64,000 nt of DNA, from contig JADGBH010000001.1 in NCBI GenBank assembly GCA_015231595.1, forward strand, positions 78,900-142,899, read 5' to 3'. Position 1 is the stretch's first letter; every line of letters begins with the position of its first letter. The position numbers and the translations under genes were made by a program. Below are positions 13,127-52,562 of the stretch, in pieces. This DNA is from Desulfobacterales bacterium. GTDB lineage: Bacteria > Desulfobacterota > Desulfobacteria > Desulfobacterales > JADGBH01. The notes below the pieces were generated by a model. That model saw only the letters and a list, made by a program, of their open reading frames with translations, was not told the origin of the DNA and ran no database searches.

Positions 13127-13127
13127 A

Positions 13128-24701: not shown

Positions 24702-25829
24702 CTAATCGCCCATCAATAATATCCTCCAGGGTTGGTCAATAAATTGGCGCTGCGTTGTAAGGGTATATTCGTGCGAGCCTGTACATCCGTTTCGGTCTGT
24801 GGCGGTGACTGAGAACGTAAACGAACCGATCGCAGTCGGTGTGCTTGATATAACGCCTGTTTCGGTATTGAACAACAACCCAGTGGGCAGCAACCCGATG
24901 ATGCTGAATGTATACGGTGCTCTTCCCCCACTAGCATCGATGTCCTGGTTATAGACAACTCCCACTGTTCCTTGCGGAAGCTGCTGCGGCGTAAGCGTAA
25001 TGAGCGGACAGGGAAAGGTTACAGCGTCGGAATCGAGCGTAACCTGGGTTTGCGCCAGCGCTCTGCCGTTCAATACTGCGCCGGTTCGCAAGATAATCTG
25101 CTTTGCACTCAATATAGTTCCATTGAAGGTGGAGTACGTTCCGAGAGTTGCACCGCTAACACCTCCGACCTGCCAAAAGATATTCGAGGCTAGGGCTCCA
25201 CCGGTTAGTACTACCTTAATACCGGTAGCGACGCTGCCAGATGATGCGATATCAAGATTTCCAGCTATTTGGAATATCCAAACATCGTTTGCACCGCCCG
25301 AGAGAGTAACGTTTGTGTTTATTAAAACGTCGTTGCTCCATTTGTAGAGTCCAGGGGCTATTGTCAGTCCGCTGATATCTCCAGCACCCAGTCCGATGAC
25401 AGGAGCAGGGCTTACTATCCCAGCAGCGCTATTGTATGCAGTTAGCATATCGCCTACCGCGGTATCCACTAAGGTCTTGTTAGCAAGAGGCGGATTACCG
25501 GCAAAACATGTTATAGTGCCATTACCTGTATATGCTGCATCAACACCGTAGATGGTTCCAGTGATTTGCGAACACCATATTCCATCCATCTGCGCAGCAG
25601 AGCCAGGACTATTGCCAATATCCCCAGTGATAGCAGAAGTATGGCTTCCGGTCTCTGTGATCCCTGTTTCTGCCAGAATCACGAAATTACCTGCTGACAA
25701 AAGATCGACTGGGTCAGGGCCGGCCGCGAGCGCTGTAATTGCCCCAATGAAACCGAGCGCAACAAGCCCCACGCTAAGCAAAAGACTCCATCTTGTCCTC
25801 CGGTTAAAGATTTTTTTTATTTTAAACAT
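24702..25829 (-). CDS. Secreted DUF3494 (ice-binding-like) beta-solenoid protein with a C-terminal Ig-like (He_PIG-type) domain. The gene is compositionally foreign.
   Basis: Signal peptide (RRTRWSLLLSVGLVALGFIGAITALAAG). DUF3494 hallmarks: LLSAGNFVILAETGIT..ITGDIGNSPG, ..TAYNSAAG.., LTIAPGLYKWSN, DVWIFQIAGNLDIAS, NIFWQVGG, FNGTILSAKQIILRTGAVLNGRALAQTQVTLD. The tail reads GGRAPYTFSIIGLLPTGLLFNTETGVISSTPTAIGSFTFSVTATD. GGGAGAA RBS upstream of the second ATG (25829). Confidence 0.85.
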   Translation of the reverse strand: MFKIKKIFNRRTRWSLLLSVGLVALGFIGAITALAAGPDPVDLLSAGNFVILAETGITETGSHTSAITGDIGNSPGSAAQMDGIWCSQITGTIYGVDAAYTGNGTITCFAGNPPLANKTLVDTAVGDMLTAYNSAAGIVSPAPVIGLGAGDISGLTIAPGLYKWSNDVLINTNVTLSGGANDVWIFQIAGNLDIASSGSVATGIKVVLTGGALASNIFWQVGGVSGATLGTYSTFNGTILSAKQIILRTGAVLNGRALAQTQVTLDSDAVTFPCPLITLTPQQLPQGTVGVVYNQDIDASGGRAPYTFSIIGLLPTGLLFNTETGVISSTPTAIGSFTFSVTATDRNGCTGSHEYTLTTQRQFIDQPWRILLMGD

Positions 25830-26047
25830 TTTTGATTCTCCCATTAATTTTTCTTCGAATTGTTGAAAATTCCTAATACTGCAGCATCATAATTATCTAT
25901 TTATTCAATAATTCATTCCTTTGCAATAATTTTAGTTGAAAGCCGCTATTTATTGATATTTAGATCGATATATCAGTAGAATCAATGCTCTTAAAATAAC
26001 ATTTTGATTTAATCAAAAAAATGGGATTTCCTATACTATTAAATTTG

Positions 26048-28122: not shown

Positions 28123-31100
28123 CTATGCTTTCTTCACAATTCCTTCCGCTATTTTTTCTGCTGAATTACCAAATAATTCGTCCATTTGAATAAATTCAAT
28201 CAAATCATCTTTCCATTGAATGTTTTCTTGAACTAGACTTTTTATTCTTTCATATTTTCCACCGAGAGCCTTTATTTTAAAACTTAAAGAAACATTAATT
28301 TTAAACTCTATTTCAACAAGAAGTAAATATTCTATTACGTTAGGAGTATCAGGAGACGCTGAAATAATAGGTATAACAATCATTTTCCTGCCATCTCGCC
28401 TGCCTTTACCTATATAAACATTTCCTTCTCTTACAATTATTTTTTTAGTTCCTTTTAAAGTCTTATCTTTTTCAACTCTTGATACTAAGCCTTTAGATGA
28501 GCCTCTTTTATCTATAACTTCTATGGATGCATCGTCTGTTGGTTCTCCAAGAAGATTCAATCCTGAAATTTTATATAATGTTGACCCTTTTATTTCGGAT
28601 ATAATTGTTTGGATATTTTTAAGCACAATTACATTTTTATTAATAAGCTGAGATGTGCTAAAATTATAATCGGTTAATACGTCAAAAAGTATCCCTTCCA
28701 TTTTTTCGACAATTCGGCTCGTTCCTACTGTTACAGTTTTTGCTTGATGTTTTATGGCATCGATAGGCCTTGCCATATATGTAACAGCTTCACCAACACA
28801 GTCAAAAAGCTTATTAAGCATATTTAAAGGAGTTCCTTTTACGCCAAAATCAAGCTCAAAATCAGATACAGGAAGCCTTCCATAAAGGTACTTTAACAAA
28901 AGTGTAAGATCTGAAGCATCATATTTTCCCCAAAAAGCCGGGAAATGATTATTAGTTTTTTTATCCCTAAAAACACGATAAAATCTCAAAATTGTTTCTT
29001 TAAACGATTTTTCAAGTATACTTTCAAAAATATCAAGGCCTTCTTTTGTAAATTTATCAATGGTTAATTTAAGCTCATTTCTAAATCTATAAAATAATTC
29101 AGAATTTTGATTAATTGCAAGCGCCGCATAATATCCCCATAAATGACCTACCAGTGTATTTAAAATTGAAGAAAGGTGTTCTTTAACGACTGGAATTTTA
29201 AATACAGCTGCGGCATATTTATCAAATCTGTCCTCATCCTCATTTGTAATTACGATGGGAACCGCCTTATGAGCCTGAAAAATTGCAGTATCTTTAATTA
29301 AATCGTAAGTTACTCCTTCGCGCGCGCCAGCAGCACATATAATTATTAAAGGCTCTGCAGAAAGATCTATATGCTTTTTATCTTCAATGTAGTCAGATGA
29401 AATTGTTTTATAACATAATTCACTTAATTTTATTCTTATTTCATCGGAGGAGGCTTTATTTGGCCCACTTCCAGCAGCAGCCCAATAAGTTCTTGTTAAG
29501 GCATATTTTTTAGCAGATTCCTCTATTTCTTCGCTCATATTAAGGATTTTTCGCATGTGGCATGGAATTTTAATAAGTTCAGCCATTTCTGACGTAATAA
29601 AATCATCATTTCTAGTACCCGTTATTTGAGCAATATAAAGACCTAATATAGTTCCAGCAATAATTTGAGAATAAAAAGCCTTTGTTGAAGCGACTGACAT
29701 TTCAATATCTCTTCCGCTGCTTGTATAAATAACTCCATGAACTTTAAATGTAATATCTGATTCTCTTCGATTTACTATAGCAAGAGTGTAAGCACCATTT
29801 GTATTCGCCATATCAATTGTTTTATTAGTATCTGTAGTTGTTCCTGATTGAGTTATAGCTATTACAAGATTATCTTGCATACTTTTAATTTCTGAATCTT
29901 TTGACTCGCTTATTTTACCGCTTAACTCTGAAGCTTTTAAAGCAGATATATTTATACCAGAACCTGCCATATAATAATTTAAAATATCCGAACAAACAAG
30001 AGCCGCAACTCCTGCTGTTCCTTGGCCAATAAAATAAACATTTTTAATTTTTTTCTCTGTAAGGGCTGCAACTAAAGGTTTAGGAAAATTTTTCTCATTA
30101 AGTTTTATTTCAATTTTGCCTGTATCGAGTTTTGTTTTCCATCGGTTAAAAAGAGTTTTTTCTACAGAAGATGGGCTTTCAGATATTTCTTTAAAAAAAT
30201 AATGGGAAAAAGTTTGTCTATCTATATCCCTTGAAGTAATTTCAGATTTTTTTATATCCTTTATTTCCATGTTAAAAGGCGTTCCATCATACCACATGGA
30301 TTTTACGCTGCCTTCTTGAGCAAAAGGCTTTTCATCCAATATCACTATTTGGCCTTGAATACTGCCATTTTGCCCTTCAAAAAGTTTTTCTCCTTCTAAT
30401 TTAAAAAAATAGGGAGTTTCTTCGACAAATCCATAAACTTCAGATGTAGGAATATAATGGTCATCAGCTACACCAACGAAAATAGCTTGTCCGCTGCCTC
30501 TTTGGGCTAAAAAAAGTTTACCGGGCGCAATATCTGTTTGCATAAAAATAGCGTGGGAACCTTTAAAAGCATTAACAGCCATTCTAAAAGACTCTTCTAT
30601 TGAATTTCCTTGATTTAAATATTTTTCTATTTGAAGAGGGATAATCTTTGTATCAGTAGTGATTTCAGAATCTATCCTGATTCCTTCCTCTTCTAACGAA
30701 GCTTTTAAGTCTTGATAATTATCGATATCCCCATTTAAAGATACATGGATAATATTGCTGTGAAGAGATGCTCCTTTATTGAAATCATTATCCATAGGAT
30801 GGCAATTTTCTTCAGAAATATTTCCAACCGATGCCCACCTTGTATGGGCGGCAATATTATAATGAAGATTATTACAATTTATAATAATATTAAATATTTC
30901 ATCATTTTTAATTTGATTTCTAAGAAAAGAAATATTATCGCCAAGCTTTCCTACTTCAGCTGAAACCTTATAAGTAAATGAAATGCATTTTAAAGATTCT
31001 GTTTCTTTAATTAAATTACTTAGGGATATGCTTCCATTAAGTAGAATATTATAATTCATTCGTTTATCAAAAACATCTATTAAACCCTTTTCTGTAATAA

Positions 31101-31875
31101 TATTTTGAAATTTTTCAAATTCAGCTTCTTTAATCCAAAAAAATATTGAAATGCCTGCGGAATCTCTACCTCTAACTTCAAGACGATCAATGCTATTTAA
31201 AACAGAATTAAGTCTTTTCAATATTTTTAATGACAATGGAGACACAAATTCCTTTGCGTCAAAATATAAATCATTTATTCTTTTGATATTTTCGTATAAC
31301 TCTTTTGAAAGAGCCCATTGAATATCTTTTAATAATTCAATTTTTTGATTTATTTTATTAACACTCACAGTGTTTAAAATTCCACTATTGATCGAAAGAA
31401 AGGCTTCACAACTTTGAATTGCGTTAAAAAGCATTGCCGAAACGTTTATAATTTCGTCTGATAATTCTTTATTAGGAAATATTTTTATAAAAGAATATTC
31501 TTTTTTTAATGAAAGGATAAATTCAAATAAGGTATCAAGTAAAGAGTTATCTCCTAAAAAATGATCCGAAAGATTAAAATTATCTTTAATAAATTCGTCT
31601 AATATAAGGTTTTCGCTCTGTTCATAGAGTTTACGAGCCGTCTGAATTAAAAAATTTATATCGATGGATTCATCGTGTTTTGTAGCCTGATGTTTTACGG
31701 CAATTATTCCGGCAAGACCGCAATAAAAAATATTATTGCATACAGGGAAAAAAATTATAGATTTCTCAGATACAGACTTTATATTTTTTCCTATAAAAAT
31801 TTGATAATTAAAAAATGATAATTTGTCAAAACTCCTTCGTAGAAAACTAAACATGCTATTTTTTTTTGTTTTCAT
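28123..31875 (-). CDS. Giant GlmS-like glutamine amidotransferase (class II) / tandem-SIS sugar-phosphate isomerase family protein, 1250 aa
   Basis: GATase-II motifs: CGLAGIIAV (Cys at residue 52), RLEVRGRDSAGISI, AHTRWASVG, NGDIDNY. SIS motifs: GQGTAGVAALV, VIAITQSGTTTDT. The GlmS isomerase-site equivalents EDKKH and HQAKTVTVG are present. It is about twice the length of the canonical GlmS, which is about 610 aa. Confidence 0.75.
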   Translation of the reverse strand: MKTKKNSMFSFLRRSFDKLSFFNYQIFIGKNIKSVSEKSIIFFPVCNNIFYCGLAGIIAVKHQATKHDESIDINFLIQTARKLYEQSENLILDEFIKDNFNLSDHFLGDNSLLDTLFEFILSLKKEYSFIKIFPNKELSDEIINVSAMLFNAIQSCEAFLSINSGILNTVSVNKINQKIELLKDIQWALSKELYENIKRINDLYFDAKEFVSPLSLKILKRLNSVLNSIDRLEVRGRDSAGISIFFWIKEAEFEKFQNIITEKGLIDVFDKRMNYNILLNGSISLSNLIKETESLKCISFTYKVSAEVGKLGDNISFLRNQIKNDEIFNIIINCNNLHYNIAAHTRWASVGNISEENCHPMDNDFNKGASLHSNIIHVSLNGDIDNYQDLKASLEEEGIRIDSEITTDTKIIPLQIEKYLNQGNSIEESFRMAVNAFKGSHAIFMQTDIAPGKLFLAQRGSGQAIFVGVADDHYIPTSEVYGFVEETPYFFKLEGEKLFEGQNGSIQGQIVILDEKPFAQEGSVKSMWYDGTPFNMEIKDIKKSEITSRDIDRQTFSHYFFKEISESPSSVEKTLFNRWKTKLDTGKIEIKLNEKNFPKPLVAALTEKKIKNVYFIGQGTAGVAALVCSDILNYYMAGSGINISALKASELSGKISESKDSEIKSMQDNLVIAITQSGTTTDTNKTIDMANTNGAYTLAIVNRRESDITFKVHGVIYTSSGRDIEMSVASTKAFYSQIIAGTILGLYIAQITGTRNDDFITSEMAELIKIPCHMRKILNMSEEIEESAKKYALTRTYWAAAGSGPNKASSDEIRIKLSELCYKTISSDYIEDKKHIDLSAEPLIIICAAGAREGVTYDLIKDTAIFQAHKAVPIVITNEDEDRFDKYAAAVFKIPVVKEHLSSILNTLVGHLWGYYAALAINQNSELFYRFRNELKLTIDKFTKEGLDIFESILEKSFKETILRFYRVFRDKKTNNHFPAFWGKYDASDLTLLLKYLYGRLPVSDFELDFGVKGTPLNMLNKLFDCVGEAVTYMARPIDAIKHQAKTVTVGTSRIVEKMEGILFDVLTDYNFSTSQLINKNVIVLKNIQTIISEIKGSTLYKISGLNLLGEPTDDASIEVIDKRGSSKGLVSRVEKDKTLKGTKKIIVREGNVYIGKGRRDGRKMIVIPIISASPDTPNVIEYLLLVEIEFKINVSLSFKIKALGGKYERIKSLVQENIQWKDDLIEFIQMDELFGNSAEKIAEGIVKKA

Positions 31876-40953: not shown

Positions 40954-41622
40954 ATGTTTATAACACTTGAAGGGATAGAAGGTTCAGGAAAGACTACGCA
41001 AGTTAAAAATATACTTGAATTTATGTCTATGAAAGGCATAGAAGCGATAAGAACTCAGGAACCTGGAGGAACAAACATTGGAGGAAAAATTAGAACTCTT
41101 CTCCTTGACCCTGAGAATAAAGATATACATCCAATGACTGAGTTATTATTGTATTTTGCTGATAGAACCCAGCATTACACAGAATTTATTAAGCCTTTGC
41201 TTCAAAAAGGAAAAGCAGTTGTTTGTGACAGATTCTTTGAATCTACGCTCGCATATCAGGGGTATGCAAGGGGTATGGATATAGACTTGATTAAATATTT
41301 ACATAAAATTATATTTGGAGGCATAAAGCCAGACATTACATTACTTTTTGATCTTCCAGCTGAAATAGGTTTAACAAGAGCATTAAATGACATCAAAGCT
41401 GGGAATAGACCAAAAAATGAAGCTCGTTTTGAAAAAGAGAATATTTTATTCCACGAAAAAGTTAGAAATGGTTATCTCGAAATATCAAGGCTTGAGCCAG
41501 ATAGAATTAAAGTAATTAACGCTTTATTAGATAAAAATAAGGTAAAAGACGAAATTTTTAATGTATTATCTTTAAAATTAGATACTAACAATGACGGCAC
41601 TAAAAAGAAAAAAAATAATTAG
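40954..41622 (+). CDS. tmk: Thymidylate kinase
   Basis: MFITLEGIEGSGKTTQ P-loop, a DRF.ST.AYQG motif and a LID region. Confidence 0.93.
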   Translation: MFITLEGIEGSGKTTQVKNILEFMSMKGIEAIRTQEPGGTNIGGKIRTLLLDPENKDIHPMTELLLYFADRTQHYTEFIKPLLQKGKAVVCDRFFESTLAYQGYARGMDIDLIKYLHKIIFGGIKPDITLLFDLPAEIGLTRALNDIKAGNRPKNEARFEKENILFHEKVRNGYLEISRLEPDRIKVINALLDKNKVKDEIFNVLSLKLDTNNDGTKKKKNN

Positions 41623-41632
41623 GACAAAAAAA

Positions 41633-43903
41633 ATGAAAAAATCTCTTTTAGACCATATTGGTAATACTCCACTTATAGAAATAAAAAAACTTAATCCAAA
41701 TCCAAATGTGAAAATATTTGCTAAATTAGAATATTTTAATCCTGGAGGTTCAATAAAAGACAGAGCTGCCATGTACATGATTGATGATGGTGAAAAAGCA
41801 GGTAAATTAACTCATAAAAAAATTGTGCTTGAAGCTACAAGTGGAAATACAGGAATAGGTCTTGCTCTTGTATGCTCGATAAAAGGCTATAAAATGCTTT
41901 TCGCCATGTCAGAATCTGCAAGCATTGAGCGACAAAAAATATTAAAAGCAAGGGGATCTGAAATTCTGCTAACTCCGGGGCATCTTGGTACGGACGGAGC
42001 GATTGAAGAAGTATATAGACTTGCAAGGGAATACCCTGATACATATTTCATGACCGATCAATATAATAATGAAGCTAATTGGAAAGCTCACTATTATGGA
42101 ACAGCAGAAGAAATATGGGCTCAAACAAATGGAACGGTTTCAATGATAATTGCAACAATGGGAACAACAGGAACCATAATGGGTCTTTCAAGAAGGTTTA
42201 AAGAATACAATCCAGATATAAAAATAATAGGAGTTGAACCTTATCTTGGCCATAAAATACAAGGCCTTAAAAACATGAAAGAAGCTTACTGTCCAGGTCT
42301 TTATAATAAAAAATATCTTGATGAAAAAATCAATATTGAAGATGAAAATGCTTTTGAAATGACAAGGCGTCTTGCTAAAGAAGAAGGCATTTTTGTAGGA
42401 ATGAGCAGCGGAGCTGCTATGTTCATAGCTGCTAAACAAGCCGAACAATTAGATAGTGGCGTTATTGTTACAATATTTCCAGACAGCGGAGAACGATATT
42501 TAAGCACCACCCTTTTTACTGAAAAAACCAAAGCTGAAATAAAAATTCAAAATACGCTTACACGAAATAAAGAACCTTTTCATCCAATTATACCTGGAAA
42601 AGTTTCAGTTTATTCCTGCGGGCCTACAGCTCACGCAAGAATGAATCCTGGAGAATGCAGAAGAATAGTATTTTCAGACATTTTGTGCAGATATCTTGAA
42701 TATAGAGGGTATTCAGTCAATCAAATAATGAATATAACTGATGTCGATGATAAAACAATTTTAGGATCAGAAAAGGAAGGTCTAAGCCTTTCTGAATTCA
42801 CTGAAAAAAATATAGAAACATTTAAAAAAGATTTAGCACTATTAAACATTAAACAAGCCTCAAAATATCCTAAAACAAGCGAACATATAGATGCTATGGT
42901 TTCTTTGGCTGAAAAGCTATTTGAAAAAGGTTTTGCTTATGAAAAACTTCATTCCCTTTATTTCAATATTTCCAAATTTCAAGAATATGGCAAATTATCC
43001 GGAATTGATTTAAACAAAATAAAATCAGGATTAACAATAGACTTAGACGAATATGAAAAAGATAACCCCAAAGATTTTACTCTTCTTAAAAGATCAAAAT
43101 TATCAGAACTTAAACGGGGTATCTATACAAAAACAAAATGGGGCAATGTTAGGGCTTCATGGCATATTCAATGTGTTGCCATGTCAATGCAGTACCTTGG
43201 AGAAACATTCGATATTCATACAAGCGCAAGAAAACTTATATTTCCCCACAATGAGAATGAAATAGCAATAGCTAAAGCTGTTACAGGAAAGCCTCTTGCT
43301 AAATACTGGATGCATTGCGATAGTGTATTAATACCTGATGAAAACCAAAATATAACTTTAGATGACCTTATTCAAAAAGGATATTCCGCAAAAACAATCA
43401 GATATTGGCTGCTTTCAACCCATTATAGCAAATCAATGACTTTTTCCTTAGATAGAATAGAAAGCTCCCAAAATGCCCTTGAAAGAATTAATACTTGCAT
43501 AAAAAGGCTAAAAAGCATAAAAACTACAGCTTCAAATTTTTCTGAGCTTAATCAACTGATTTATGACATAAAACAGGGATTTATTTTATCAATGGATGAT
43601 GATTTAAATATTTCTGGAGCTTTGGCTTCAACATTTAAGTCCATAAAAACAATAAACGCCTTGATAACAAAGCAAAAACTAAGCTGCAATGATGCAGATA
43701 AACTTATAGATTGTTTTAAAAGTATAGACTCTGTTTTAAATGTATTTTCTTTTGAAGAAGAAATATCTGATAACAAAACTCTCGAATTAATAAAACAAAG
43801 AAATAAAGCAAGGGCAAATAAAAATTGGGAACTTGCAGATAAAATAAAAGATGAACTAACACTACTTGGGATAAAAATTCATGACAAAAAAACGAGTGAA
43901 TGA
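41633..43903 (+). CDS. Fusion protein: an N-terminal PLP-dependent cysteine synthase (CysK/CysM family) joined to a C-terminal CysRS-like domain with degenerate HIGH and KMSKS motifs
   Basis: CysK part: NPGGSIKDRAA (PLP Lys), TSGNTGIGLA, GTTGTIMG, SSGAAM, FPDSGERYLST.LF. CysRS part starts at IKIQNTLTRNKEPF..VYSCGPT and is colinear with E. coli CysRS through WHIQC, FPHNENE and the C-terminal DDLNISGAL and QRNKARANKNWELADKIKDEL. AGGA RBS upstream of ATG 41633. Confidence 0.8.
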   Translation: MKKSLLDHIGNTPLIEIKKLNPNPNVKIFAKLEYFNPGGSIKDRAAMYMIDDGEKAGKLTHKKIVLEATSGNTGIGLALVCSIKGYKMLFAMSESASIERQKILKARGSEILLTPGHLGTDGAIEEVYRLAREYPDTYFMTDQYNNEANWKAHYYGTAEEIWAQTNGTVSMIIATMGTTGTIMGLSRRFKEYNPDIKIIGVEPYLGHKIQGLKNMKEAYCPGLYNKKYLDEKINIEDENAFEMTRRLAKEEGIFVGMSSGAAMFIAAKQAEQLDSGVIVTIFPDSGERYLSTTLFTEKTKAEIKIQNTLTRNKEPFHPIIPGKVSVYSCGPTAHARMNPGECRRIVFSDILCRYLEYRGYSVNQIMNITDVDDKTILGSEKEGLSLSEFTEKNIETFKKDLALLNIKQASKYPKTSEHIDAMVSLAEKLFEKGFAYEKLHSLYFNISKFQEYGKLSGIDLNKIKSGLTIDLDEYEKDNPKDFTLLKRSKLSELKRGIYTKTKWGNVRASWHIQCVAMSMQYLGETFDIHTSARKLIFPHNENEIAIAKAVTGKPLAKYWMHCDSVLIPDENQNITLDDLIQKGYSAKTIRYWLLSTHYSKSMTFSLDRIESSQNALERINTCIKRLKSIKTTASNFSELNQLIYDIKQGFILSMDDDLNISGALASTFKSIKTINALITKQKLSCNDADKLIDCFKSIDSVLNVFSFEEEISDNKTLELIKQRNKARANKNWELADKIKDELTLLGIKIHDKKTSE

Positions 43904-43915: not shown

Positions 43916-44911
43916 ATGATGCCAGTTTATTTTCCATTTACAACGATTTCAAACTATTCTTTAAAGCTTCTTTTATCAGCATTTAAAAAAGTGATGGTCT
44001 ATCAGCCTTCTAAAAATATACCTGAACCTCTTTTAAATCTTGAAAAACAAGGATATTTATACTTAAAAATCCCATTTAGCGGAGATGAAAAACAACTTGA
44101 TATAGCTGAAAAAGATTTTAAATTCTGGTTAAACTCCCACAAAGGAACAGATACAAATCTTCTAAAAAACATAAAAAATAGTCAGCCATTTGTTGGTGAA
44201 TCTTCAGCTTTATCTATAAAAAACCTAATTTCACATTATGATAAAAAAGCTGATAAAACACAAACAGCAACATCTGAAATTGCTCTATTCTATCCGAGAC
44301 TTTTTCTTAAAATAACTCAAGATTTCGATATAAACATGGACGAAATTAATAATAAACTTATTCTCTATAACAAAATGGAACAAGATATTATTCACGATAT
44401 TACCTTTGAGAAGGACGATCTAAAAACTATCCCTGATTTATCTCTTATTCCGGATAATTCTAAAGATTTTATGATAAAAGAACGGATAGAAGCATTAAGC
44501 TCATTAATTATGAATGATTCTGATTTGAGCGGTATCTATATTACAACAAGCAAAAATGCTTTGGAATACATACTTGATAAATTTCCAGATGCTGAAAAAA
44601 TTTTTAAAATAACGAATCTTCCTGTATATACAGACACCAATGATGAACTTATTTCATGGCAAAATTCTTTACACGAATACCTTGAAAAGGTATCAAATTC
44701 GGAGGACATAAAAAGCGTAAAAAAATTTATACTGCAACCGCCCAAATCTAAAGCTGCTTCCAATTTTTCTTTAACTTCTTATGTTATTCCAAATAATAAC
44801 CCTTATTATGTTTTCGAAAAATTTACCCCAACTCGTGATAAACAACCAAATAATGAAAAAATAAGAAATACTATAATATGCCTTTTAGATTTAAACAAAG
44901 ATTCAATATAG
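43916..44911 (+). CDS. Hypothetical protein (no domain recognised)
   Basis: 331-aa ORF, 12 nt after the fusion gene and 15 nt before the exporter gene. Coding-like composition, and no motif that I can name. Confidence 0.55.
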   Translation: MMPVYFPFTTISNYSLKLLLSAFKKVMVYQPSKNIPEPLLNLEKQGYLYLKIPFSGDEKQLDIAEKDFKFWLNSHKGTDTNLLKNIKNSQPFVGESSALSIKNLISHYDKKADKTQTATSEIALFYPRLFLKITQDFDINMDEINNKLILYNKMEQDIIHDITFEKDDLKTIPDLSLIPDNSKDFMIKERIEALSSLIMNDSDLSGIYITTSKNALEYILDKFPDAEKIFKITNLPVYTDTNDELISWQNSLHEYLEKVSNSEDIKSVKKFILQPPKSKAASNFSLTSYVIPNNNPYYVFEKFTPTRDKQPNNEKIRNTIICLLDLNKDSI

Positions 44912-44926: not shown

Positions 44927-47437
44927 ATGAATAAAAAAATTTTCATCAGTAACTTTATAATTCTTATTCTTATGTTCATTTCATTTAACTACTCTGGCGT
45001 TATGGCTCAAAGCCTAACATCTCAGATCTCAAATGAAAAAAAAATACAATTTGAAATTGAGGATTCTGATAAAGACAAAAAAGACTTATATGAAAACATA
45101 CAAGAAGGATATTCTGCTAAGGATAAAGAAACATATAAAGAAAAAATAAAAGATGTAAAAATAGAAGGTAAAGCGCCTGAAAAAGAAAATTTAAGCAATG
45201 TAGAAAAAATTTTATCAGGGGAATTTCCAGAATCAATATCAAAGGAACTCACCCAATACGGTTATGACTTTTTTTCTAAAGATAAGTCCGATTTTCAAAC
45301 ATTAACATATATTCCAGTTGGAGACGACTATATAGTCGGTCCTGGAGATCAATTTGTAATATATTTATGGGGCAAAGCTGAAAAGAACTATGATGTTGAA
45401 GTAAATAGAGATGGCTCAATAATCCTTCCAAGAGTAGGTTCTATAAATGTAAATGGGTTGACTTATAAAGAACTGACTGGGATTCTTTCAAATAAACTTA
45501 GAGATTATTATCCTGACACCAAAATGAGCTTAACAATGGGGAAACTACGATCAATTCAAATATTTATAATCGGCGAAGCTAGCAAACCAGGAACTTATAC
45601 AGTAAGTTCTCTATCTACAGTTGTTTCGGCCTTATATGATGCTGGAGGAGTAAAAAAAAATGGAAGCTTAAGAAATATTCAACTAGTACGAAATGGAGCT
45701 ACAATTTCAAATATAGATTTATATAACTTTTTTATAAAAGGTATAAAAAAAAATGACATATTCTTACAATCGGGTGATACAATTTTTATACCTCTTATAG
45801 GGTCTGTTGTAGGGATATCTGGAAATGTAAAACGACCAGCAATATATGAAGTAAAAAAAGATGAAAAACTTGATGATATAATTAAAATATCAGGAGGAAT
45901 ACTGCCTACAGGTTATGCTCAAAGCATAGCTGTTGAAAGAATTAAAGATAATAAAAGAAGGGTTGTGCGGACTTTTAATGTTGACCCTTTTGAAACCAAG
46001 CTCTACAGTCTTAATACGCCCCTTGAAGATTTTGATTTAATTAAAATTTATCCGATTTCAGGGATAATTAGAAGCGTAGTATATCTTCAAGGCCATGTAA
46101 AGTATCCTATGGAATATGAATATAGACCAGGTATGAAGATTTCAGACATTATTTCTTCATTTGATTCATTGCTTCCTAACCCGCACCTTAATAGAGCAGA
46201 CATACTCCGCAAGGTACCGCCAACTATGCATGAAGAAATTATAGAATTCAATCTGGGCGCCCTTCTCTCTGGTGATCAAACTCAAAATTTAGCACTAAAA
46301 GAACTCGATACTGTAACAGTTTACAGTTTAGAAGATAAAGAAGAAGTGCCGATAGTTACAATTAATGGTTCTGTTCGTGAGCCAGGTACTTACAAACTTT
46401 ACAAAAATATGCAGATAAGTGACTTAATATTTCAAGCTGGAGGACTTTTAAAAATGGCGTATCTTCAGCATGGAAGATTAACAAGAATGGTATTTGAAAA
46501 TAATGCCGCAAAAACTGAAGAATTAACTTTTTCAACCCAAAATGCCATAGAAAATATCCCTTCAGATAATCTTCAACTTAAACCAAATGACGTTGTAGTT
46601 ATTCCTGAAATACCTCGCTATCGACAAATTTTAACTCAAAAAATTGAACTTGTGGGAGAATTTATGTTCCCAGGAACATATACATTTTCTGAAGGAGAAA
46701 AACTTGATTCTGTCATTAAACGGGCAGGAGGATTAACCAAATTCGCATTTACAAAGGGAGCCTCATTTGAAAGGGAATCTGTAAAAAAAATGCAGCAATA
46801 CAGATTAGCTGTATATGCAAGCAAACTTGAGGAAGAAATATATACCTTAAACGCCCAAGCTTCCGCCGGTTCAGCTGAACAAGAAGATATCGCTCTTTTA
46901 AAAAGCTCCCTTGAAGCAAAAAAGAAACTTCTTGATAAAATGAAGACAGCCCAACCAACAGGAAGAATGGTCATTCAACTTGAAGATATTATAGAAAAAC
47001 CTTCTTCTTCCTATAATTTCGTATTAGAGCCTGGTGACAAACTTGAAATTTCCCAAGCACCGAGCTTTGTTACAATTATAGGAGAAGTTTATAATCCTTC
47101 TTCACTATTTGCCGAAGAGCTAAAAAGTGTAGGATATTATTTGAATAATGTTGGTGGTGTTACAGAAGATGCCGATAAAGGACAAGTATATTTAGTAAAA
47201 GCTAATGGAACAGTTAGCAGCAAACAGCAAGACAGTTTCTGGGGTCTTTTTAGATGGGATCCAATAAAACAGAAAAAAACATTCGGAGGCTTTACCTCCC
47301 TGCTTGTCGAACCAGGAGATACTATAATAGTTCCCAAAAAGATGGAAACTTACCAAGGTATGAAGATTGCTAAAGATACTTCCCAAATTCTCTATCAATT
47401 AGCAATAACAACTAAGGTAATAAGTTCAGCACTATAA
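44927..47437 (+). CDS. Polysaccharide export protein with a Poly_export domain and multiple SLBB domains (Wza/KpsD-like, long form)
   Basis: Signal peptide. Poly_export motif YIVGPGDQFVIYLWGK..VNRDGSIILPRVGSINVNGLTYKEL. Several repeats of (I/V)xV.G.V..PG.Y (SLBB). Confidence 0.85.
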   Translation: MNKKIFISNFIILILMFISFNYSGVMAQSLTSQISNEKKIQFEIEDSDKDKKDLYENIQEGYSAKDKETYKEKIKDVKIEGKAPEKENLSNVEKILSGEFPESISKELTQYGYDFFSKDKSDFQTLTYIPVGDDYIVGPGDQFVIYLWGKAEKNYDVEVNRDGSIILPRVGSINVNGLTYKELTGILSNKLRDYYPDTKMSLTMGKLRSIQIFIIGEASKPGTYTVSSLSTVVSALYDAGGVKKNGSLRNIQLVRNGATISNIDLYNFFIKGIKKNDIFLQSGDTIFIPLIGSVVGISGNVKRPAIYEVKKDEKLDDIIKISGGILPTGYAQSIAVERIKDNKRRVVRTFNVDPFETKLYSLNTPLEDFDLIKIYPISGIIRSVVYLQGHVKYPMEYEYRPGMKISDIISSFDSLLPNPHLNRADILRKVPPTMHEEIIEFNLGALLSGDQTQNLALKELDTVTVYSLEDKEEVPIVTINGSVREPGTYKLYKNMQISDLIFQAGGLLKMAYLQHGRLTRMVFENNAAKTEELTFSTQNAIENIPSDNLQLKPNDVVVIPEIPRYRQILTQKIELVGEFMFPGTYTFSEGEKLDSVIKRAGGLTKFAFTKGASFERESVKKMQQYRLAVYASKLEEEIYTLNAQASAGSAEQEDIALLKSSLEAKKKLLDKMKTAQPTGRMVIQLEDIIEKPSSSYNFVLEPGDKLEISQAPSFVTIIGEVYNPSSLFAEELKSVGYYLNNVGGVTEDADKGQVYLVKANGTVSSKQQDSFWGLFRWDPIKQKKTFGGFTSLLVEPGDTIIVPKKMETYQGMKIAKDTSQILYQLAITTKVISSAL

Positions 47438-47545: not shown

Positions 47546-48604
<1,059 letters not shown>

Positions 48605-48620: not shown

Positions 48621-49004
48621 TTATTTTTTCTTCCACCTATCAATCTTTTCAAAAGCTAGCGCTGCACTTTTAAGAAGAGATGCTAAATCTACCGGTTTTT
48701 TAAAATAATCATCAAAACCAGCTTCACGGCAATCGGCAAGCTCAAAAAGAGAAGCATATCCTGTAACAGCATAAATTAATGCAACAGGATTATCTTTCCT
48801 TGCAATTCGGCACAATTCAATGCCATCCATGCCAGGAAGATTTAAATCTAAAAACATAAGAGGAAATTTTTCATTTTTCATTATATCTAAAGCTTCTTCA
48901 GCACTTTCAGCTAATGCAACAGAATATCCATTAGTGATAAAAGCTTTTTTCAGCATCTCCCGTATACTTTCTTCATCATCTACAAATAAAACTCTTTTTT
49001 CCAT
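48621..49004 (-). CDS. cheY: CheY-like single-domain response regulator
   Basis: 127 aa with LFVDDEE, FLDLNLPGMDG and YFKKP. Confidence 0.85.
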   Translation of the reverse strand: MEKRVLFVDDEESIREMLKKAFITNGYSVALAESAEEALDIMKNEKFPLMFLDLNLPGMDGIELCRIARKDNPVALIYAVTGYASLFELADCREAGFDDYFKKPVDLASLLKSAALAFEKIDRWKKK

Positions 49005-49018: not shown

Positions 49019-51187
49019 TTACTTAGTTGCGACTTCAAATAAACCAGCTATATCAAGTATAAGACTTACCTTGCCATCGCCTAAAATAGCCCCCCCAGCA
49101 AGTCCTTTTACGTTTTTAAAGCATTCCCCAAGACTTTTTATTACAATTTCTTCTTTGCAGATAAGTTCATCTACTAAAACCGCTTTTTGATCTTTATTGT
49201 GTTCCACTGTTACAACTATCCCTTCCCATGGATTTTTAGCATCAGTATCAATGCCGAATAATTTATCAAGGCGTATAAGGGGAAGCAGACCACCTCTTAT
49301 CATAACCATTTCACCTTTATTTTCGATACTGTAACAATCATCTTCTTTTGGTTTAACTGATTCAATTGTAGCCATTGTCGGAATAATATATTTTTCGTTT
49401 CCAACTCTAACAACCATACCGTCAATAACAGCAAGTGTTAATGGAAAACTAATTGTAAATACAGTTCCTTTACCTTCATGGGAAGCAATTTCAATATTTC
49501 CTCTAAGTTTTTCAATGGCTCTTTTAACCACATCCATTCCAACGCCCCTTCCTGATATATCAGTTATTTTTTCAGCAGTTGAAAACCCTGGATGAAAAAT
49601 AAGGTTATATATTTCCGATTCAGACAAATTAGCGTCTTTTTTTATTAAATTAAGATTTAACGCCTTTTCAACTATACGATTTTTATTAATGCCTCTTCCA
49701 TCGTCTTTTATGTCTATGATAAACTTGCCACCTTTATGATAGGCACATAGTTGAATAGTTCCATTTAAGTCTTTTGAAACTTTTTTTCTTTCAGACGGAG
49801 GTTCAATTCCATGGTCAATTGAATTGCGAATCATATGAACCAAAGGCTCATATAATTCATCTACAACATTTCTATCAATTTCTGTTTCCTCTCCAAACAT
49901 TTCAAGATTAACGTCTTTGCCTGAATTTTTGGAAAGGTCTCTTACCAATCTCACCATTTTTTGAAAAGTATTTTTTATTGGTATCATTCTAAGGGTCATG
50001 GATAGTCTCTGTAAAACAGATACTATTCTACCAAGCTCATTCATATTTTGGTTAAGTTTTTGATCATTAATTTTTTGTGCCAGAACATTTTGTTTCACCA
50101 TAGATTGAGTTATAACAAGTTCTCCTGTTAGATCTACTAAGTTATCCAATTTATTTATATCAACTTTAACTTGAAGTTCGGCAATTTTGCCGGATTTTTT
50201 TTGTTCAGAAACAGCATTAAAAATGGCTGTTGGCTCAATTAAATCTTCATCTATAAGTATTTGACCTATTTTTTTATGGGGATCTCTTTTTTGAAGATTA
50301 AGTCCTTTTTCAAGACTTTTTTCCGATATATAACCCTTTTCAAGAAGAATTTCACCTATAAGACGTCCTCCCCTTGTAAAAGGAACTTTTTTTAAATTTT
50401 CAATTTTTAATAAAAGCGGCTCAACATCAATGTTTCCTTCAAGAATTTGAAGGCTTTTTTCAAGGCTATCGTCAATGTTTCGGATAATTGTTTTTATCAT
50501 GTCTGCTGATTCAAGAACAATATCAGTCACATCTAAATTTAGTTCAATTTCTTCCTTTCTTACGCTATCAAGTATATTTTCCGTACTGTGGGCAAGTTTA
50601 TGAATTTTATTAAAATTTAAAAAACCTGAAACCCCCTTAATTGTATGAAATGATCTGAAAATAGAATTTATTACGTCTTTATCATAAGTATTTTTTTCAA
50701 GACCTATAAGGCTAACTTCTATGTGTTCGAAATGTTCCCCTGCTTCTAAAATAAAATCTTGTATTATTTGGATATCTTCTTCCGTATAAACTTTAGTTTT
50801 AGCCAACTCTTGTTCCTGTTTCTTTAATTCATTCTCTGCGTTTTGATTCAGCGAAGGCTTTTCTTCTTTAATTCCAAAACGGTTGAAAAAATTTTCAATA
50901 TCAATGGAATATTCCTGCCCATTGTCTATATGCCTCCATATATCTTGAAGAATGGTTACGCCTTCTTCTAAAAGAGCGTAATCACTTACTTCATTCATAA
51001 TTAATTTTTGAGTATATTGAGCAAGACCATCAATAACTTTTAAAAATAAAGCATTATTAAAATCCTTTGCACTTTTTGAAAGTTCTGAAAAAAAATTAAG
51101 CAGCCTTCCAAGGGACGGAATATCATCTTTTTCAAGAGTAACTAATGTTAATGCTATGCTTTCGATTATTTTATTAATATCGTTCAT
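49019..51187 (-). CDS. cheA: Chemotaxis histidine kinase CheA with an N-terminal extension and an MshEN/T2SSE_N-like insert in place of P2
   Basis: Hpt FRSFHTIKGVSGF (His at about residue 181), a dimerisation region, HATPase (HMIRNSIDHGIE, DDGRGI, GRGVGMDVV) and a CheW-like P5 domain. Residues about 272-330 read RGGRLIGEILLEKGYISEKSLEKGLNLQKRDPHKKIGQILIDEDLIEPTAIFNAVSEQ. Confidence 0.9.
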   Translation of the reverse strand: MNDINKIIESIALTLVTLEKDDIPSLGRLLNFFSELSKSAKDFNNALFLKVIDGLAQYTQKLIMNEVSDYALLEEGVTILQDIWRHIDNGQEYSIDIENFFNRFGIKEEKPSLNQNAENELKKQEQELAKTKVYTEEDIQIIQDFILEAGEHFEHIEVSLIGLEKNTYDKDVINSIFRSFHTIKGVSGFLNFNKIHKLAHSTENILDSVRKEEIELNLDVTDIVLESADMIKTIIRNIDDSLEKSLQILEGNIDVEPLLLKIENLKKVPFTRGGRLIGEILLEKGYISEKSLEKGLNLQKRDPHKKIGQILIDEDLIEPTAIFNAVSEQKKSGKIAELQVKVDINKLDNLVDLTGELVITQSMVKQNVLAQKINDQKLNQNMNELGRIVSVLQRLSMTLRMIPIKNTFQKMVRLVRDLSKNSGKDVNLEMFGEETEIDRNVVDELYEPLVHMIRNSIDHGIEPPSERKKVSKDLNGTIQLCAYHKGGKFIIDIKDDGRGINKNRIVEKALNLNLIKKDANLSESEIYNLIFHPGFSTAEKITDISGRGVGMDVVKRAIEKLRGNIEIASHEGKGTVFTISFPLTLAVIDGMVVRVGNEKYIIPTMATIESVKPKEDDCYSIENKGEMVMIRGGLLPLIRLDKLFGIDTDAKNPWEGIVVTVEHNKDQKAVLVDELICKEEIVIKSLGECFKNVKGLAGGAILGDGKVSLILDIAGLFEVATK

Positions 51188-51210: not shown

Positions 51211-52053
51211 TCAGCTCAAAGATTTAAAATATACCGCTGGTTTAATATATTTATATTTATGATTAAGACCCATAAGACTTTCCGAATGACCTACAAAAAG
51301 GAAACCATTATCATTAAGACAATTATAAAACTTATTAACAAGTCTTTCTTGAATTTCTTTATCAAAATATATCATCACATTTCTACAAAAAATAAAATTA
51401 AATTTCTCATTAAAAGGAAACGTATCCATTAAGTTAAAACGCCTAAAAGAAATATTCTGTTTTAAATTTTCTTTAACTCTAAAACAACCATCCCATTGTC
51501 CCTGTCCTTTTTGAAAATATTTTCTTAAAATATTAGACGGAATTTTAGCAATTTGCGATGTTCCATAAATACCGTCCATAGCTTTTTGTAAAACCTTTGT
51601 TGAAATATCAGTTGCTAAAACCTTTGTATTTAATGGAAGAACATTTTCAGAGTATTCATTAAGAGATATAGCTATAGAATAAGCTTCTTCTCCACTTGAA
51701 CACCCAGCACTCCAAACTTTAATTAATTGATTTCTATTTTTAGCAATAATAGATGGAAGGGCTTCTTTTATAAGAAAATCAAAATGCTTTTCTTCTCTAA
51801 AAAAACTTGTAAGATTTGTTGATATAGCATTGATAAACTCAACAATTTCTTTTCCGCTGGAATCATTTATTAGGTAACTGTAATAATCTTTAAAATTTTT
51901 TAATGAAAGTTCCCTCAAACGTTTTCCAAGCCTTGCTTTAATAAGCTCTTTTTTTCCTGAACTTATGGATATTCCACATTTGTCATAGATAAAAGAGCTG
52001 AAACAGCTAAAATCATTATCTGAAAGATCAAAACTACACATAGATTCTATCAT
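51211..52053 (-). CDS. cheR: Chemotaxis protein methyltransferase
   Basis: CheR N-terminal helical domain plus the SAM-binding VWSAGCSSGEEAYS and IFCRNVMIYF. Confidence 0.92.
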   Translation of the reverse strand: MIESMCSFDLSDNDFSCFSSFIYDKCGISISSGKKELIKARLGKRLRELSLKNFKDYYSYLINDSSGKEIVEFINAISTNLTSFFREEKHFDFLIKEALPSIIAKNRNQLIKVWSAGCSSGEEAYSIAISLNEYSENVLPLNTKVLATDISTKVLQKAMDGIYGTSQIAKIPSNILRKYFQKGQGQWDGCFRVKENLKQNISFRRFNLMDTFPFNEKFNFIFCRNVMIYFDKEIQERLVNKFYNCLNDNGFLFVGHSESLMGLNHKYKYIKPAVYFKSLS

Positions 52054-52562
52054 CGCTTTTGATTATAGGGGAACCAGTCTAATTGCCTAAGCTTTTCTAC
52101 CTTCGCTACAGCAACTTCATTTGTAGCTGTATTGAAAACAACCTTCCTGCCTCTTTCTCCTCCAACATCTTCAGAAACAATATGAATTCTTTTCTTACTT
52201 AGTATTTTTCTTGCTATAGTTATATTGTCTAATCCTATGTTATTTTTACAAATTAAAGGATTATGGGCGCCTCCAAAAAGTTGAACTTCCAGATCTTGAA
52301 TTTTTGAGCCTGAATCAACCATAAAGTTTATAAGAGCTAAAACAGCTACATTCCCATATCTGGCAGTAGCTTTATCTTTATCCAAAATATATGGAAATAA
52401 AAAATGATTCATACCTCCAGTCCTTCTTTTCTTATCATACATGCAAATAGAAACACATGAACCTAACACCGTTGAAATTAAAGTAGGCTCAGAAGGAATA
52501 TAAATACATCCTGGATGAAGAAAATAACTATTTTTTACAAGATCTTGATTTTCATCATTCAC
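52050..52562 (-). CDS. cheD: Chemoreceptor glutamine deamidase
   Basis: CheD motifs LGSCVSICMYD, GGMNHFLFP and GGERGRKV. Confidence 0.9.
   Translation of the reverse strand: MNDENQDLVKNSYFLHPGCIYIPSEPTLISTVLGSCVSICMYDKKRRTGGMNHFLFPYILDKDKATARYGNVAVLALINFMVDSGSKIQDLEVQLFGGAHNPLICKNNIGLDNITIARKILSKKRIHIVSEDVGGERGRKVVFNTATNEVAVAKVEKLRQLDWFPYNQKR

What the first reader, a model, noticed from the sequence alone, without database searches (positions are those of the whole stretch)
50198..50374. CheA carries a tandem MshEN/T2SSE_N-like motif where the P2 domain should be
Between the Hpt domain (His in FRSFHTIKG) and the dimerisation domain, the protein reads RGGRLIGEILLEKGYISEKSLEKGLNLQ-KRDPHK-KIGQILIDEDLIEPTAIFNAVSEQ. 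Both halves fit most positions of the MshEN c-di-GMP-binding motif as I recall it: RLGxx(L/V/I)(L/V/I)xxG(L/V/I)(L/V/I)xxxxLxxxLxxQ, twice, with a short spacer. The first half has the G, LL, G, I, L, L and Q positions. The second half has G, LI, LI, I, V and Q but carries D at the second conserved G position. The Arg of the first half is offset by one residue. This would place second-messenger input directly on the chemotaxis kinase. The CheA also has an N-terminal extension of about 140 aa that looks like a His-less Hpt. The cheD-R-A-Y-B cluster contains no cheW or MCP gene.
Basis: partly seen in the sequence, partly recalled or inferred. Interest (0 to 1): 0.55.

Follow-up and report, generated by a model that had tools for sequence, protein, structure and literature searches.

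The report
CheA kinase with built-in c-di-GMP sensor
[quoted passage not shown] This fusion was already listed in a 2016 survey and is common in sulfate-reducing Desulfobacterales, but nobody has tested what it does.

Summary
On the minus strand, 50198-50374 encodes aa 272-330 of a 722-aa CheA (49019-51187). These residues form a complete MshEN_N (GSPII N-subdomain) module.

- The curated NCBIfam model NF053729 "c-di-GMP_motif, MshE-related" matches end to end, at 47.6 bits against a cutoff of 38.
- The AlphaFold model superposes on V. cholerae MshE bound to c-di-GMP (5HTL) at 0.9 A.
- Pfam T2SSE_N finds nothing. I read this as a false negative.
- The N-terminal half is predicted all-helical, so there is no P2 domain.
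- The "offset Arg" is not a defect. Leu at motif position 1 fits the experimentally extended consensus (R/K/L)LG.

The architecture is not unique. One peptide pattern found relatives in 210 GTDB species genomes. The best 80 loci are nearly all named Desulfobacterales or relatives, and the Gly and Gln ligand-contact positions of both motifs are invariant in the 79 with a detectable domain. The connectors to P1 and P3 are short and of fixed length.

Wang et al. 2016 already listed MshEN-CheA fusions, in a version that retains P2. I found no experimental follow-up.

The most likely function is a c-di-GMP receptor that gates the P1 domain of CheA. Binding and the gating effect are inferred, not shown. 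I file it as a new member of a known but uncharacterised kind, of moderate interest.

The parts
49019..51187 (-). cheA, 722 aa: N-terminal extension, P1 (Hpt), MshEN_N, P3, P4, P5. No P2 domain.
   Evidence: ORF; Pfam domains; NCBIfam CheA and NF053729
50879..51187 (-). N-terminal extension, aa 1-103. It is a conserved helical domain (helices 2-16, 23-43, 46-63, 71-88, 98-103) of unknown function with no conserved His. A low-confidence linker, aa 104-135, follows it.
   Evidence: AF2 pLDDT above 90; conserved in 67 homologues; hhalign against Hpt gives E 2e-4 or 0.058; no Pfam or PDB sequence match
50387..50782 (-). P1 (Hpt) domain, aa 136-267. The phospho-accepting His181 is encoded at 50645-50647.
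   Evidence: Pfam Hpt E 1e-11; Foldseek hits to CheA P1 structures 1I5N and 1TQG; H181 invariant
50291..50362 (-). MshEN motif 1, aa 276-299: LIGEILLEKGYISEKSLEKGLNLQ
50273..50290 (-). Six-residue spacer, aa 300-305 (KRDPHK). The spacer is 6 residues in all 80 domains examined (79 relatives plus the window).
50201..50272 (-). MshEN motif 2, aa 306-329: KIGQILIDEDLIEPTAIFNAVSEQ
49994..50170 (-). P3 dimerisation domain, aa 340-398. Its P3 motif starts 11 residues after Gln329 of the MshEN module.
   Evidence: Pfam; linker statistics
49436..49849 (-). P4 HATPase_c kinase domain, aa 447-584
49034..49420 (-). P5 CheW-like domain, aa 590-718
52050..52562 (-). cheD
   Evidence: Pfam CheD
51211..52053 (-). 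cheR
   Evidence: Pfam CheR_N and CheR
48621..49004 (-). cheY (single REC domain)
47546..48586 (-). cheB (REC plus methylesterase)

Best explanation
Residues 276-329 of this CheA form a genuine MshEN_N (GSPII N-subdomain) four-helix bundle. This is the 53-54-residue module that binds one c-di-GMP molecule in MshE, PilF and NfrB. In this CheA it sits in the P1-P3 connection of a kinase that has no P2 domain, joined by short connectors of fixed length: about 9 residues from the fifth P1 helix and about 10 residues to the first P3 helix.

The most likely function is that the module binds c-di-GMP and changes how the tethered P1 domain (His181) reaches the P4 ATP site or hands its phosphate to CheY and CheB. 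The cellular c-di-GMP level would then be read directly by the chemosensory kinase.

Shown here: the domain identity, the predicted fold, the conservation of ligand-contact positions, the absence of P2, and the fixed tethers. Inferred: c-di-GMP binding by this particular protein, and the direction and mechanism of its effect on kinase output.
For: - NF053729 matches at 47.6 bits (cutoff 38) across the full model. All 26 family members tested also match it.
- phmmer hits the c-di-GMP-binding PilF GSPII-B and GSPII-C domains and MshE, while the non-binding GSPII-A domain scores weakest.
- The AF2 core has pLDDT above 90. The top 16 PDB Foldseek hits are all MshE, PilF or PilB N-domains. The best is 5HTL (MshE with c-di-GMP) at rmsd 0.9 A over 57 columns.
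- In 79 genomic relatives the equivalents of G11, Q32, G40 and Q61 are invariant, and the equivalents of L10, L25, L29, L39, L54 and L58 are always L, I, V, M or F. These are the ligand contacts defined in Wang et al. 2016.
- None of the substitutions that inactivate XpsE (G11V, I19R, L29R, R38G, G40L, L54H, L58C, Q61V) is present.
- Leu at motif position 1 is tolerated. PilF K167L binds c-di-GMP with KD 2 nM, and the consensus has been extended to (R/K/L)LG (PMC11731258).
- Gly273-Gly274 precede the motif and the model starts helix alpha1 at residue 277. This is consistent with the short alpha1 that binding requires.
- The tethers have fixed lengths: His to Gly is 95-98 residues in 74 of 76 relatives, and Gln to P3 is 10-13 residues in 79 of 79. 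Related CheAs that lack MshEN have variable Ala/Pro-rich linkers instead.
Against: - No binding data exist for any MshEN-CheA.
- A perfect consensus is not sufficient for binding, as PilF GSPII-A with a restored consensus shows (PMC12002112).
- The second turn glycine (the G47 equivalent) is Asp315 here, and Lys in most relatives.
- The spacer is 6 residues, not 5.
- The window holds no GGDEF or EAL gene among the 41 of 49 ORFs of at least 120 aa that were scanned with Pfam. It also has no MCP or CheW gene, so the upstream and downstream partners are unknown.
- Pfam T2SSE_N does not match.
Confidence: 0.6

Rival explanations
1. The MshEN-like bundle is a protein-docking pad rather than a nucleotide sensor. 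It would replace P2 by recruiting CheY or CheB, or it would bind another partner, for example the HDOD protein co-encoded in most relatives or a PilZ-type adaptor.
For: - Foldseek also matches the Xanthomonas PilB N-domain in complex with PilZ (7LKM, 7LKN, 7LKO), a non-binding MshEN-like domain used for protein contact.
- PilF GSPII-A is proposed to be a 'landing pad'.
- The domain sits exactly where P2 normally lies.
- An HDOD gene is present in 52 of 80 related loci.
Against: - The Gly and Gln ligand-contact positions are invariant and the hydrophobic triads are kept in 79 relatives. That pattern is lost in the known non-binders XpsE and GSPII-A.
- The window lacks the HDOD gene.
- Docking and nucleotide binding are not mutually exclusive.
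Confidence: 0.2
2. The module is a degenerate, ligand-free structural spacer. It would be a compact rigid replacement for the flexible P1-P3 linker, with no signalling input.
For: - P2 is dispensable in E. coli CheA (my own recollection of the literature).
- Related CheAs have only low-complexity linkers at this position.
- This protein deviates at two consensus positions (L276, D315).
Against: - A spacer would not need invariant Gly and Gln at the four ligand-contact positions across at least 79 species.
- L276 fits the extended consensus.
- The segment scores above the curated cutoff of a model built for c-di-GMP binders.
Confidence: 0.1
3. The module senses a different cyclic dinucleotide, such as 3'3'-cGAMP, rather than c-di-GMP.
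For: - V. cholerae MshEN binds cGAMP weakly, with KD about 0.33 mM.
- Some Desulfobacterota-related lineages use cGAMP signalling (my own knowledge).
- The family has its own position-1 Pro and a 6-residue spacer.
Against: - Both half-sites keep the Gly-X backbone amides that read guanine O6 and N7.
- No MshEN domain is known to prefer cGAMP.
Confidence: 0.07

Closest known systems
[quoted passage not shown] 2016, PMC5013675)
   Same: Both have two tandem 24-residue motifs forming a four-helix bundle. The Gly at motif position 3, the Gln at position 24 and the hydrophobic triads are conserved. The predicted fold superposes at 0.9 A.
   Different: Here the module has no MshEN_C subdomain and no secretion ATPase. 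Position 1 of motif 1 is Leu rather than Arg, the spacer is 6 residues rather than 5, and the second turn Gly is Asp. The host protein is a CheA kinase.
Thermus thermophilus PilF GSPII-B (8PDK; K167L variant 8PE0; PMC11731258)
   Same: It is the closest solved sequence relative. It uses Lys or Leu rather than Arg at motif position 1, as this CheA does (L276, K306). The K167L variant binds c-di-GMP at 2 nM.
   Different: PilF is a pilus ATPase with three GSPII domains, each carrying a C-terminal subdomain.
[quoted passage not shown] 2016, Supplementary Table 4)
   Same: MshEN_N is inserted directly upstream of the P3 domain of a CheA. That paper predicted this to link c-di-GMP to chemotaxis.
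   Different: The published example keeps P2, and its first motif has no Arg. The window protein and its Desulfobacterales relatives have no P2, and most of them carry an extra conserved N-terminal helical domain. Neither protein has been tested experimentally.
E. coli NfrB C-terminal MshEN domain (c-di-GMP-activated glycosyltransferase)
   Same: An isolated MshEN_N module is fused to an unrelated enzyme, which it activates allosterically. The NCBIfam NfrB model also hits this segment.
   Different: The output domain is a glycosyltransferase, not a histidine kinase.
Other routes from c-di-GMP to chemotaxis or motility: YcgR and other PilZ brakes, MapZ-CheR1, Cle CheY-like proteins, PilZ-tailed chemoreceptors, and CckA as a c-di-GMP-binding kinase (own knowledge; MapZ is cited)
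   Same: They reach the same physiological end: second-messenger control of motility signalling.
   Different: All of them act on the motor, the methyltransferase, receptors or response regulators, or on a non-chemotaxis kinase. None places the receptor domain inside CheA itself.

Membership tests
MshEN_N / GSPII c-di-GMP-binding domain (NCBIfam NF053729) | Scores above the curated cutoff of the family HMM across the full model | tested here: met
   47.6 bits against a cutoff of 38, model positions 2-53 of 53. The isolated segment scores 53.3 bits. 26 of 26 relatives also match.
MshEN_N / GSPII c-di-GMP-binding domain (NCBIfam NF053729) | Two tandem 24-residue motifs separated by a short spacer | tested here: met
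   Motifs at aa 276-299 and 306-329. The spacer is 6 residues (5 in MshE) and is 6 in all 80 domains examined, 79 relatives plus the window.
MshEN_N / GSPII c-di-GMP-binding domain (NCBIfam NF053729) | Gly at motif position 3 and Gln at position 24 in both motifs (backbone and side-chain contacts to the ligand) | tested here: met
   G278, Q299, G308 and Q329 are present. These positions are invariant in 79 of 79 relatives. Their role is defined.
MshEN_N / GSPII c-di-GMP-binding domain (NCBIfam NF053729) | Hydrophobic triads that stack on the guanines (equivalents of L10/L54/L58 and L39/L25/L29) | tested here: met
   I277/I322/V326 and I307/L292/L296. These are conservative substitutions.
MshEN_N / GSPII c-di-GMP-binding domain (NCBIfam NF053729) | R, K or L at motif position 1 (extended consensus) | tested here: met
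   L276 and K306. The consensus was extended to (R/K/L)LG by the PilF K167L data. Position 1 fails the 2016 relaxed set [RKPN].
MshEN_N / GSPII c-di-GMP-binding domain (NCBIfam NF053729) | Turn glycines (equivalents of G18 and G47) | tested here: inconclusive
   G285 is present. The second position is D315, and Lys in 46 of 79 relatives. AF2 still models the turn with high confidence.
MshEN_N / GSPII c-di-GMP-binding domain (NCBIfam NF053729) | Four-helix-bundle fold like 5HTL | tested here: met
   Predicted model only: rmsd 0.9 A over 57 columns to 5HTL_B, and the top 16 hits are all MshE, PilF or PilB N-domains.
MshEN_N / GSPII c-di-GMP-binding domain (NCBIfam NF053729) | Specific c-di-GMP binding | not testable with these tools
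   This needs ITC, DRaCALA or a thermal-shift assay. The sequence consensus alone is not sufficient.
Pfam T2SSE_N (PF05157) | Match to the Pfam HMM | tested here: not met
   No hit even at E up to 10, on the whole protein or the isolated segment. None of the other MshEN-CheAs shows it either. The MshEN_C half of the MshE N-domain is absent here.
CheA histidine kinase | P1 Hpt with a phospho-accepting His, P3 dimerisation, P4 HATPase_c and P5 CheW-like domains | tested here: met
   All four Pfam domains score above their cutoffs. H181 is invariant.
CheA histidine kinase | P2 CheY/CheB-binding domain (present in E. coli-type CheA, not universal) | tested here: not met
   No PF07194 hit. The aa 1-345 model is all-helical with no strands. 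Only about 9 residues lie between the last P1 helix and the MshEN module.
Hpt domain (tested for the N-terminal extension, aa 1-103) | Hpt HMM match and a conserved phospho-accepting His on helix B | tested here: not met
   No Pfam hit and no PDB sequence hit. The position that aligns with His181 is Ser and is not conserved.
Hpt domain (tested for the N-terminal extension, aa 1-103) | Remote profile similarity or four-helix topology like P1 | tested here: inconclusive

The most novel reading that the evidence does not exclude
In this Desulfobacterales CheA lineage, the MshEN module may have taken over the P1-P3 tether as a ligand-operated latch. Binding of c-di-GMP would stiffen or re-orient a connector of fixed length and so switch P1 between productive and non-productive positions relative to P4. 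The conserved N-terminal His-less helical domain would act as a decoy or docking partner. If so, this would be the first case of a second messenger acting directly and allosterically on a chemotaxis kinase, a regulatory layer missing from current chemotaxis models.
Probability: 0.3. Interest if true: 0.7.

Novelty: new member of a known kind. Interest (0 to 1): 0.4.

Why it matters
c-di-GMP governs the switch between motile and sessile life. So far it is known to reach chemotaxis only indirectly, through motor brakes, CheR adaptors, CheY-like proteins or receptor tails. A receptor domain built into CheA would let the kinase combine chemoreceptor state and second-messenger level in one molecule.

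The fusion was noted in a supplementary table in 2016 and appears never to have been tested. This analysis adds several points:
- It is a large, well-conserved family found in at least 210 species genomes. One of the top-80 loci is labelled with the cultured strain Desulfocicer vacuolatum DSM 3385, and others carry the species names Desulforapulum autotrophicum and Desulfosudis oleivorans.
- In this lineage the domain occupies the P2 position, with rigidly conserved tether lengths.
- The ligand-contact residues are invariant.
- Pfam-based annotation does not detect the domain.

Together these give a concrete, cheap biochemical experiment with clear point-mutant controls. The window protein itself is an ordinary member of the family.

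Tried and rejected
- Pfam T2SSE_N/PF05157, on the whole protein and the isolated segment at E up to 10, gave no hit. I judged this a false negative, because NCBIfam, the PDB sequence search and the fold search all agree on an MshEN_N identity.
- The weak Pfam hits on the segment (DUF4388 at E 0.037, FumaraseC_C at E 0.2) were dismissed as noise.
- A single-protein scan of genome contigs found no relative. The repeat with an alignment of the MshEN-P3 junction worked.
- The N-terminal extension gave nothing significant against Pfam per member or as a profile against PDB sequences. The hhalign similarity to Hpt weakened from E 2e-4 to 0.058 when more sequences were added. 'His-less Hpt' is therefore left open.
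- I looked for Pfam P2 in MshEN-CheAs that have a long gap between Hpt and MshEN (P0077, P0096). There was no PF07194 hit, so I cannot say what the extra 110-130 residues are.
- A look-up of the source contig through the 100%-identical ArgRS found nothing on record.
- Literature searches for experimental work on MshEN-CheA found nothing beyond the 2016 survey.
- phmmer with MCP, CheW, HDOD, CheX and CheZ-like seeds against all six frames of the window hit nothing. As expected, the CheY seed hit only cheY and the cheB receiver domain.
- I considered and rejected the idea that the 140-aa extension comes from a mis-called start codon. It is conserved and confidently folded in relatives.
Full report
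**1. The observation**

Translating 50198-50374(-) gives RGGRLIGEILLEKGYISEKSLEKGLNLQKRDPHKKIGQILIDEDLIEPTAIFNAVSEQK. This is aa 272-330 of a 722-aa ORF at 49019-51187(-).

Pfam finds Hpt (aa 140-222, with His181 in FRSFHTIKG), H-kinase_dim (340-398), HATPase_c (447-584) and CheW (590-718). The protein is therefore a CheA, and the segment fills the P1-P3 gap.

The neighbours on the same strand are cheD, cheR, cheA, cheY and cheB. The cluster is embedded among housekeeping genes such as priA, tRNA synthetases and lptD, and sits next to a Wza-like polysaccharide export gene.

No MCP, CheW, HDOD or CheX gene was found in the 64 kb. This was checked by Pfam scans of 41 of the 49 ORFs of at least 120 aa, and by phmmer against all six frames.

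**2. What the segment is**

- Pfam T2SSE_N does not match, even on the isolated segment at E up to 10.
- The curated NCBIfam domain model NF053729 ('cyclic di-GMP-binding domain-containing protein, MshE-related') matches aa 277-329 over model positions 2-53 of 53. It scores 47.6 bits against a cutoff of 38 (E 1e-12). The MshEN region of the NfrB model also hits.
- phmmer against PDB sequences finds Thermus PilF (E 1.2e-12). [quoted passage not shown] V. cholerae MshE is also found (E 4.8e-5).
- An AlphaFold model of aa 262-340, built on a 51-sequence alignment, has a four-helix core with pLDDT above 90.
- Its 16 best PDB Foldseek matches are all MshE, PilF or PilB N-domains. The best is 5HTL, MshE with c-di-GMP, at rmsd 0.9 A over 57 columns.
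- A model of aa 1-345 (pLDDT 89) is entirely helical. It shows an N-terminal domain (helices 2-16, 23-43, 46-63, 71-88, 98-103), a disordered linker, P1 (136-244 plus helix 256-267), and then the MshEN bundle (277-284, 289-301, 307-313, 319-333). There are no strands, so there is no P2.

The Pfam result is a false negative, not a refutation. No MshEN-CheA examined here gets a Pfam T2SSE_N hit. The likely reason is that the Pfam model covers the longer MshEN_N plus MshEN_C unit (my own knowledge).

**3. Does it look like a functional binding site?**

Wang et al. 2016 defined the contacts:
- The residue at motif position 1 stacks on a guanine.
- The backbone amides of the Gly at position 3 and the next residue read guanine O6 and N7.
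- Three Leu residues form a CH-pi platform under each base.
- The terminal Gln binds the ribose-phosphate.
- Two further Gly residues make the helix turns.

The window protein has the following at those positions:

| Role | Motif 1 | Motif 2 |
|---|---|---|
| Position 1 | L276 | K306 |
| Position 2 | I277 | I307 |
| Position 3 (Gly) | G278 | G308 |
| Turn Gly | G285 | D315 |
| Leu platform | L292, L296 | I322, V326 |
| Terminal Gln | Q299 | Q329 |

None of the substitutions that inactivate XpsE is present.

In PilF GSPII-B the K167L variant binds c-di-GMP with KD 2 nM, against 6 nM for wild type and 150 nM for K167R. It was crystallised with the ligand (8PE0), and the authors extended the consensus to (R/K/L)LG (PMC11731258).

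The only real deviation is Asp315 at the second turn. That position is Lys in most relatives, so it is a family trait and not decay in this one gene.

One caveat matters. PilF GSPII-A with a fully restored consensus still fails to bind, because an N-capped, elongated helix alpha1 blocks the site (PMC12002112). Here Gly273-Gly274 precede the motif, most relatives have Pro at position 1, and the model starts alpha1 at residue 277. All of this argues against such a block, but it does not prove binding.

**4. Relatives**

- Of the 117 proteins retrieved with the N-terminal half, 56 carry the same module between Hpt and P3.
- A single peptide pattern from the MshEN-P3 junction found relatives in 210 GTDB species genomes.
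- The best 80 loci are nearly all named Desulfobacterales, Desulfobacteraceae, Desulfatiglandales or the broader Deltaproteobacteria or Thermodesulfobacteriota. They include loci labelled Desulfosudis oleivorans, Desulforapulum autotrophicum and Desulfocicer vacuolatum.
- 78 of these 80 loci have the MshEN module detectable. With one locus fetched through protein P0001, this gives the set of 79 relatives analysed below.
- Most encode a 720-760-aa CheA with the module at about aa 275-360. This is the same architecture as in the window, including the N-terminal extension.
- Across those 79 relatives the four Gly and Gln contact positions are invariant. The hydrophobic positions are always aliphatic, Met or Phe, and the spacer is always 6 residues.
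- His to Gly (motif position 3) is 95-98 residues in 74 of 76 relatives. Gln to P3 is 10-13 residues in 79 of 79.
- Related CheAs without the module have variable Ala/Pro-rich linkers, and a few have Pfam P2.
- A profile search of 1.84 billion cluster representatives gave 12,005 hits at E up to 1e-3. Most of the best-scoring ones are other MshEN proteins.
- Of the 145 new proteins among the top 150, 43 are CheAs with MshEN directly before P3. These include 950-1090-aa forms with two Hpt domains and tandem MshEN modules.
- The fusion also occurs outside Desulfobacterota, for example in Oceanotoga teriensis and in an Elusimicrobia MAG.

**5. Gene context**

In relatives the usual operon is MCP-CheW-CheA-CheD-HDOD-CheY-CheX-CheB-CheR. 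HDOD is present in 52 of 80 loci and CheX in 39 of 80. The window has a reduced set, cheD-cheR-cheA-cheY-cheB.

The source is a deep-branching Desulfobacterales MAG. Its ArgRS is 100% identical to an NCBI 'MAG: Desulfobacterales bacterium' protein on a 176-kb contig, and the next-best hit is 66% identical. GC content is about 31%.

**6. Mechanism**

Shown:
- The module is a bona fide MshEN_N.
- Its ligand-contact positions are under strong constraint.
- It is inserted between P1 and P3 by short connectors of fixed length.
- The kinase lacks P2.

Inferred:
- It binds c-di-GMP.
- Because P1 must swing to P4 for autophosphorylation and then present His181-P to CheY and CheB, a ligand-induced change in the only structured element of the tether would gate one or both of these steps.

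The sign of the effect cannot be predicted. The rivals are a protein-docking pad (a P2 surrogate or an HDOD or PilZ partner), an inert rigid spacer, and a sensor of another cyclic dinucleotide. Each is weighed in the structured fields.

**7. The N-terminal extension**

Residues 1-103 form a conserved, confidently modelled helical domain with no Pfam or PDB sequence relative. hhalign aligns it to the family's own Hpt domain in a consistent register over about 100 columns, with Ser opposite His181. Significance is marginal and falls as more sequences are added (E 2e-4, then 0.058). 'Degenerate P1 duplicate' is a reasonable hypothesis, not a finding.

**8. Comparison with what is known, and novelty**

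Wang et al. [quoted passage not shown] NCBI's domain model recognises the module.

I found no experimental study of any MshEN-CheA.

The window protein differs from the published example in lacking P2 and in having the extra N-terminal domain, but it is a typical member of a large Desulfobacterales family.

Verdict: the feature is real and correctly interpreted, and it is a new member of a known but untested kind. It is of moderate interest, mainly because it makes direct c-di-GMP control of a chemotaxis kinase easy to test.

Noticed in passing
L009:11967-12848 and 51 other related loci; absent from the window: An HDOD-domain protein gene lies between cheD and cheY in 52 of 80 operons that encode an MshEN-CheA. 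CheX follows cheY in 39 of 80. HDOD has no established function, so this tight linkage to a putative c-di-GMP-sensing CheA may be a lead.
   Followed up: partly
P0142, P0158, P0172, P0184, P0188, P0211, P0217: These are CheA proteins of about 950-1090 aa with two Hpt motifs and two tandem MshEN modules directly upstream of P3. They are a more elaborate version of the same fusion.
   Followed up: partly
window 10850-16021 (-) and 6439-10800 (-): A type IV pilus assembly cluster is present (PilM 14957-16021, PilO 13717-14337, PilQ secretin 10850-13174). Immediately downstream lies a 1453-aa protein made of Big_1 and invasin-D3 repeats, a possible adhesin. Type IV pili are a candidate output for a chemosensory system that has no flagellar genes nearby.
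   Followed up: no
window 41591-43903 (+): A single 770-aa ORF fuses a PALP (cysteine-synthase-like, PLP-dependent) domain to a complete cysteinyl-tRNA synthetase. This is an unusual-looking fusion of cysteine synthesis and cysteine charging.
   Followed up: no
window 28123-31875 (-): A 1250-aa protein carries glutamine amidotransferase and SIS domains. It resembles GlmS but is about twice the usual length, and its roughly 340-aa N-terminal region has no Pfam match.
   Followed up: no
window 24702-25844 (-): This ORF encodes a protein with an ice-binding-like domain plus a putative Ig domain. It may hint at a cold habitat for the source organism.
   Followed up: no
window 43916-44911 (+) and 44927-47437 (+): A 331-aa ORF with no Pfam match sits directly upstream of an 836-aa Wza-like polysaccharide export protein (Poly_export plus multiple SLBB domains). 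The pair is convergent with the che cluster.
   Followed up: no
whole window; The window's ArgRS is 100% identical to an NCBI 'MAG: Desulfobacterales bacterium' protein on a 176-kb contig, and the next-best hit is only 66% identical. The CheA itself was not returned by the protein search (best hit 47% identity). GC content is about 31%, which I believe is low for the order.
   Followed up: partly
all MshEN-CheA proteins examined: Pfam does not report T2SSE_N for any of these proteins, so the MshEN module is invisible to Pfam-only annotation. Only the NCBIfam domain model detects it.
   Followed up: yes
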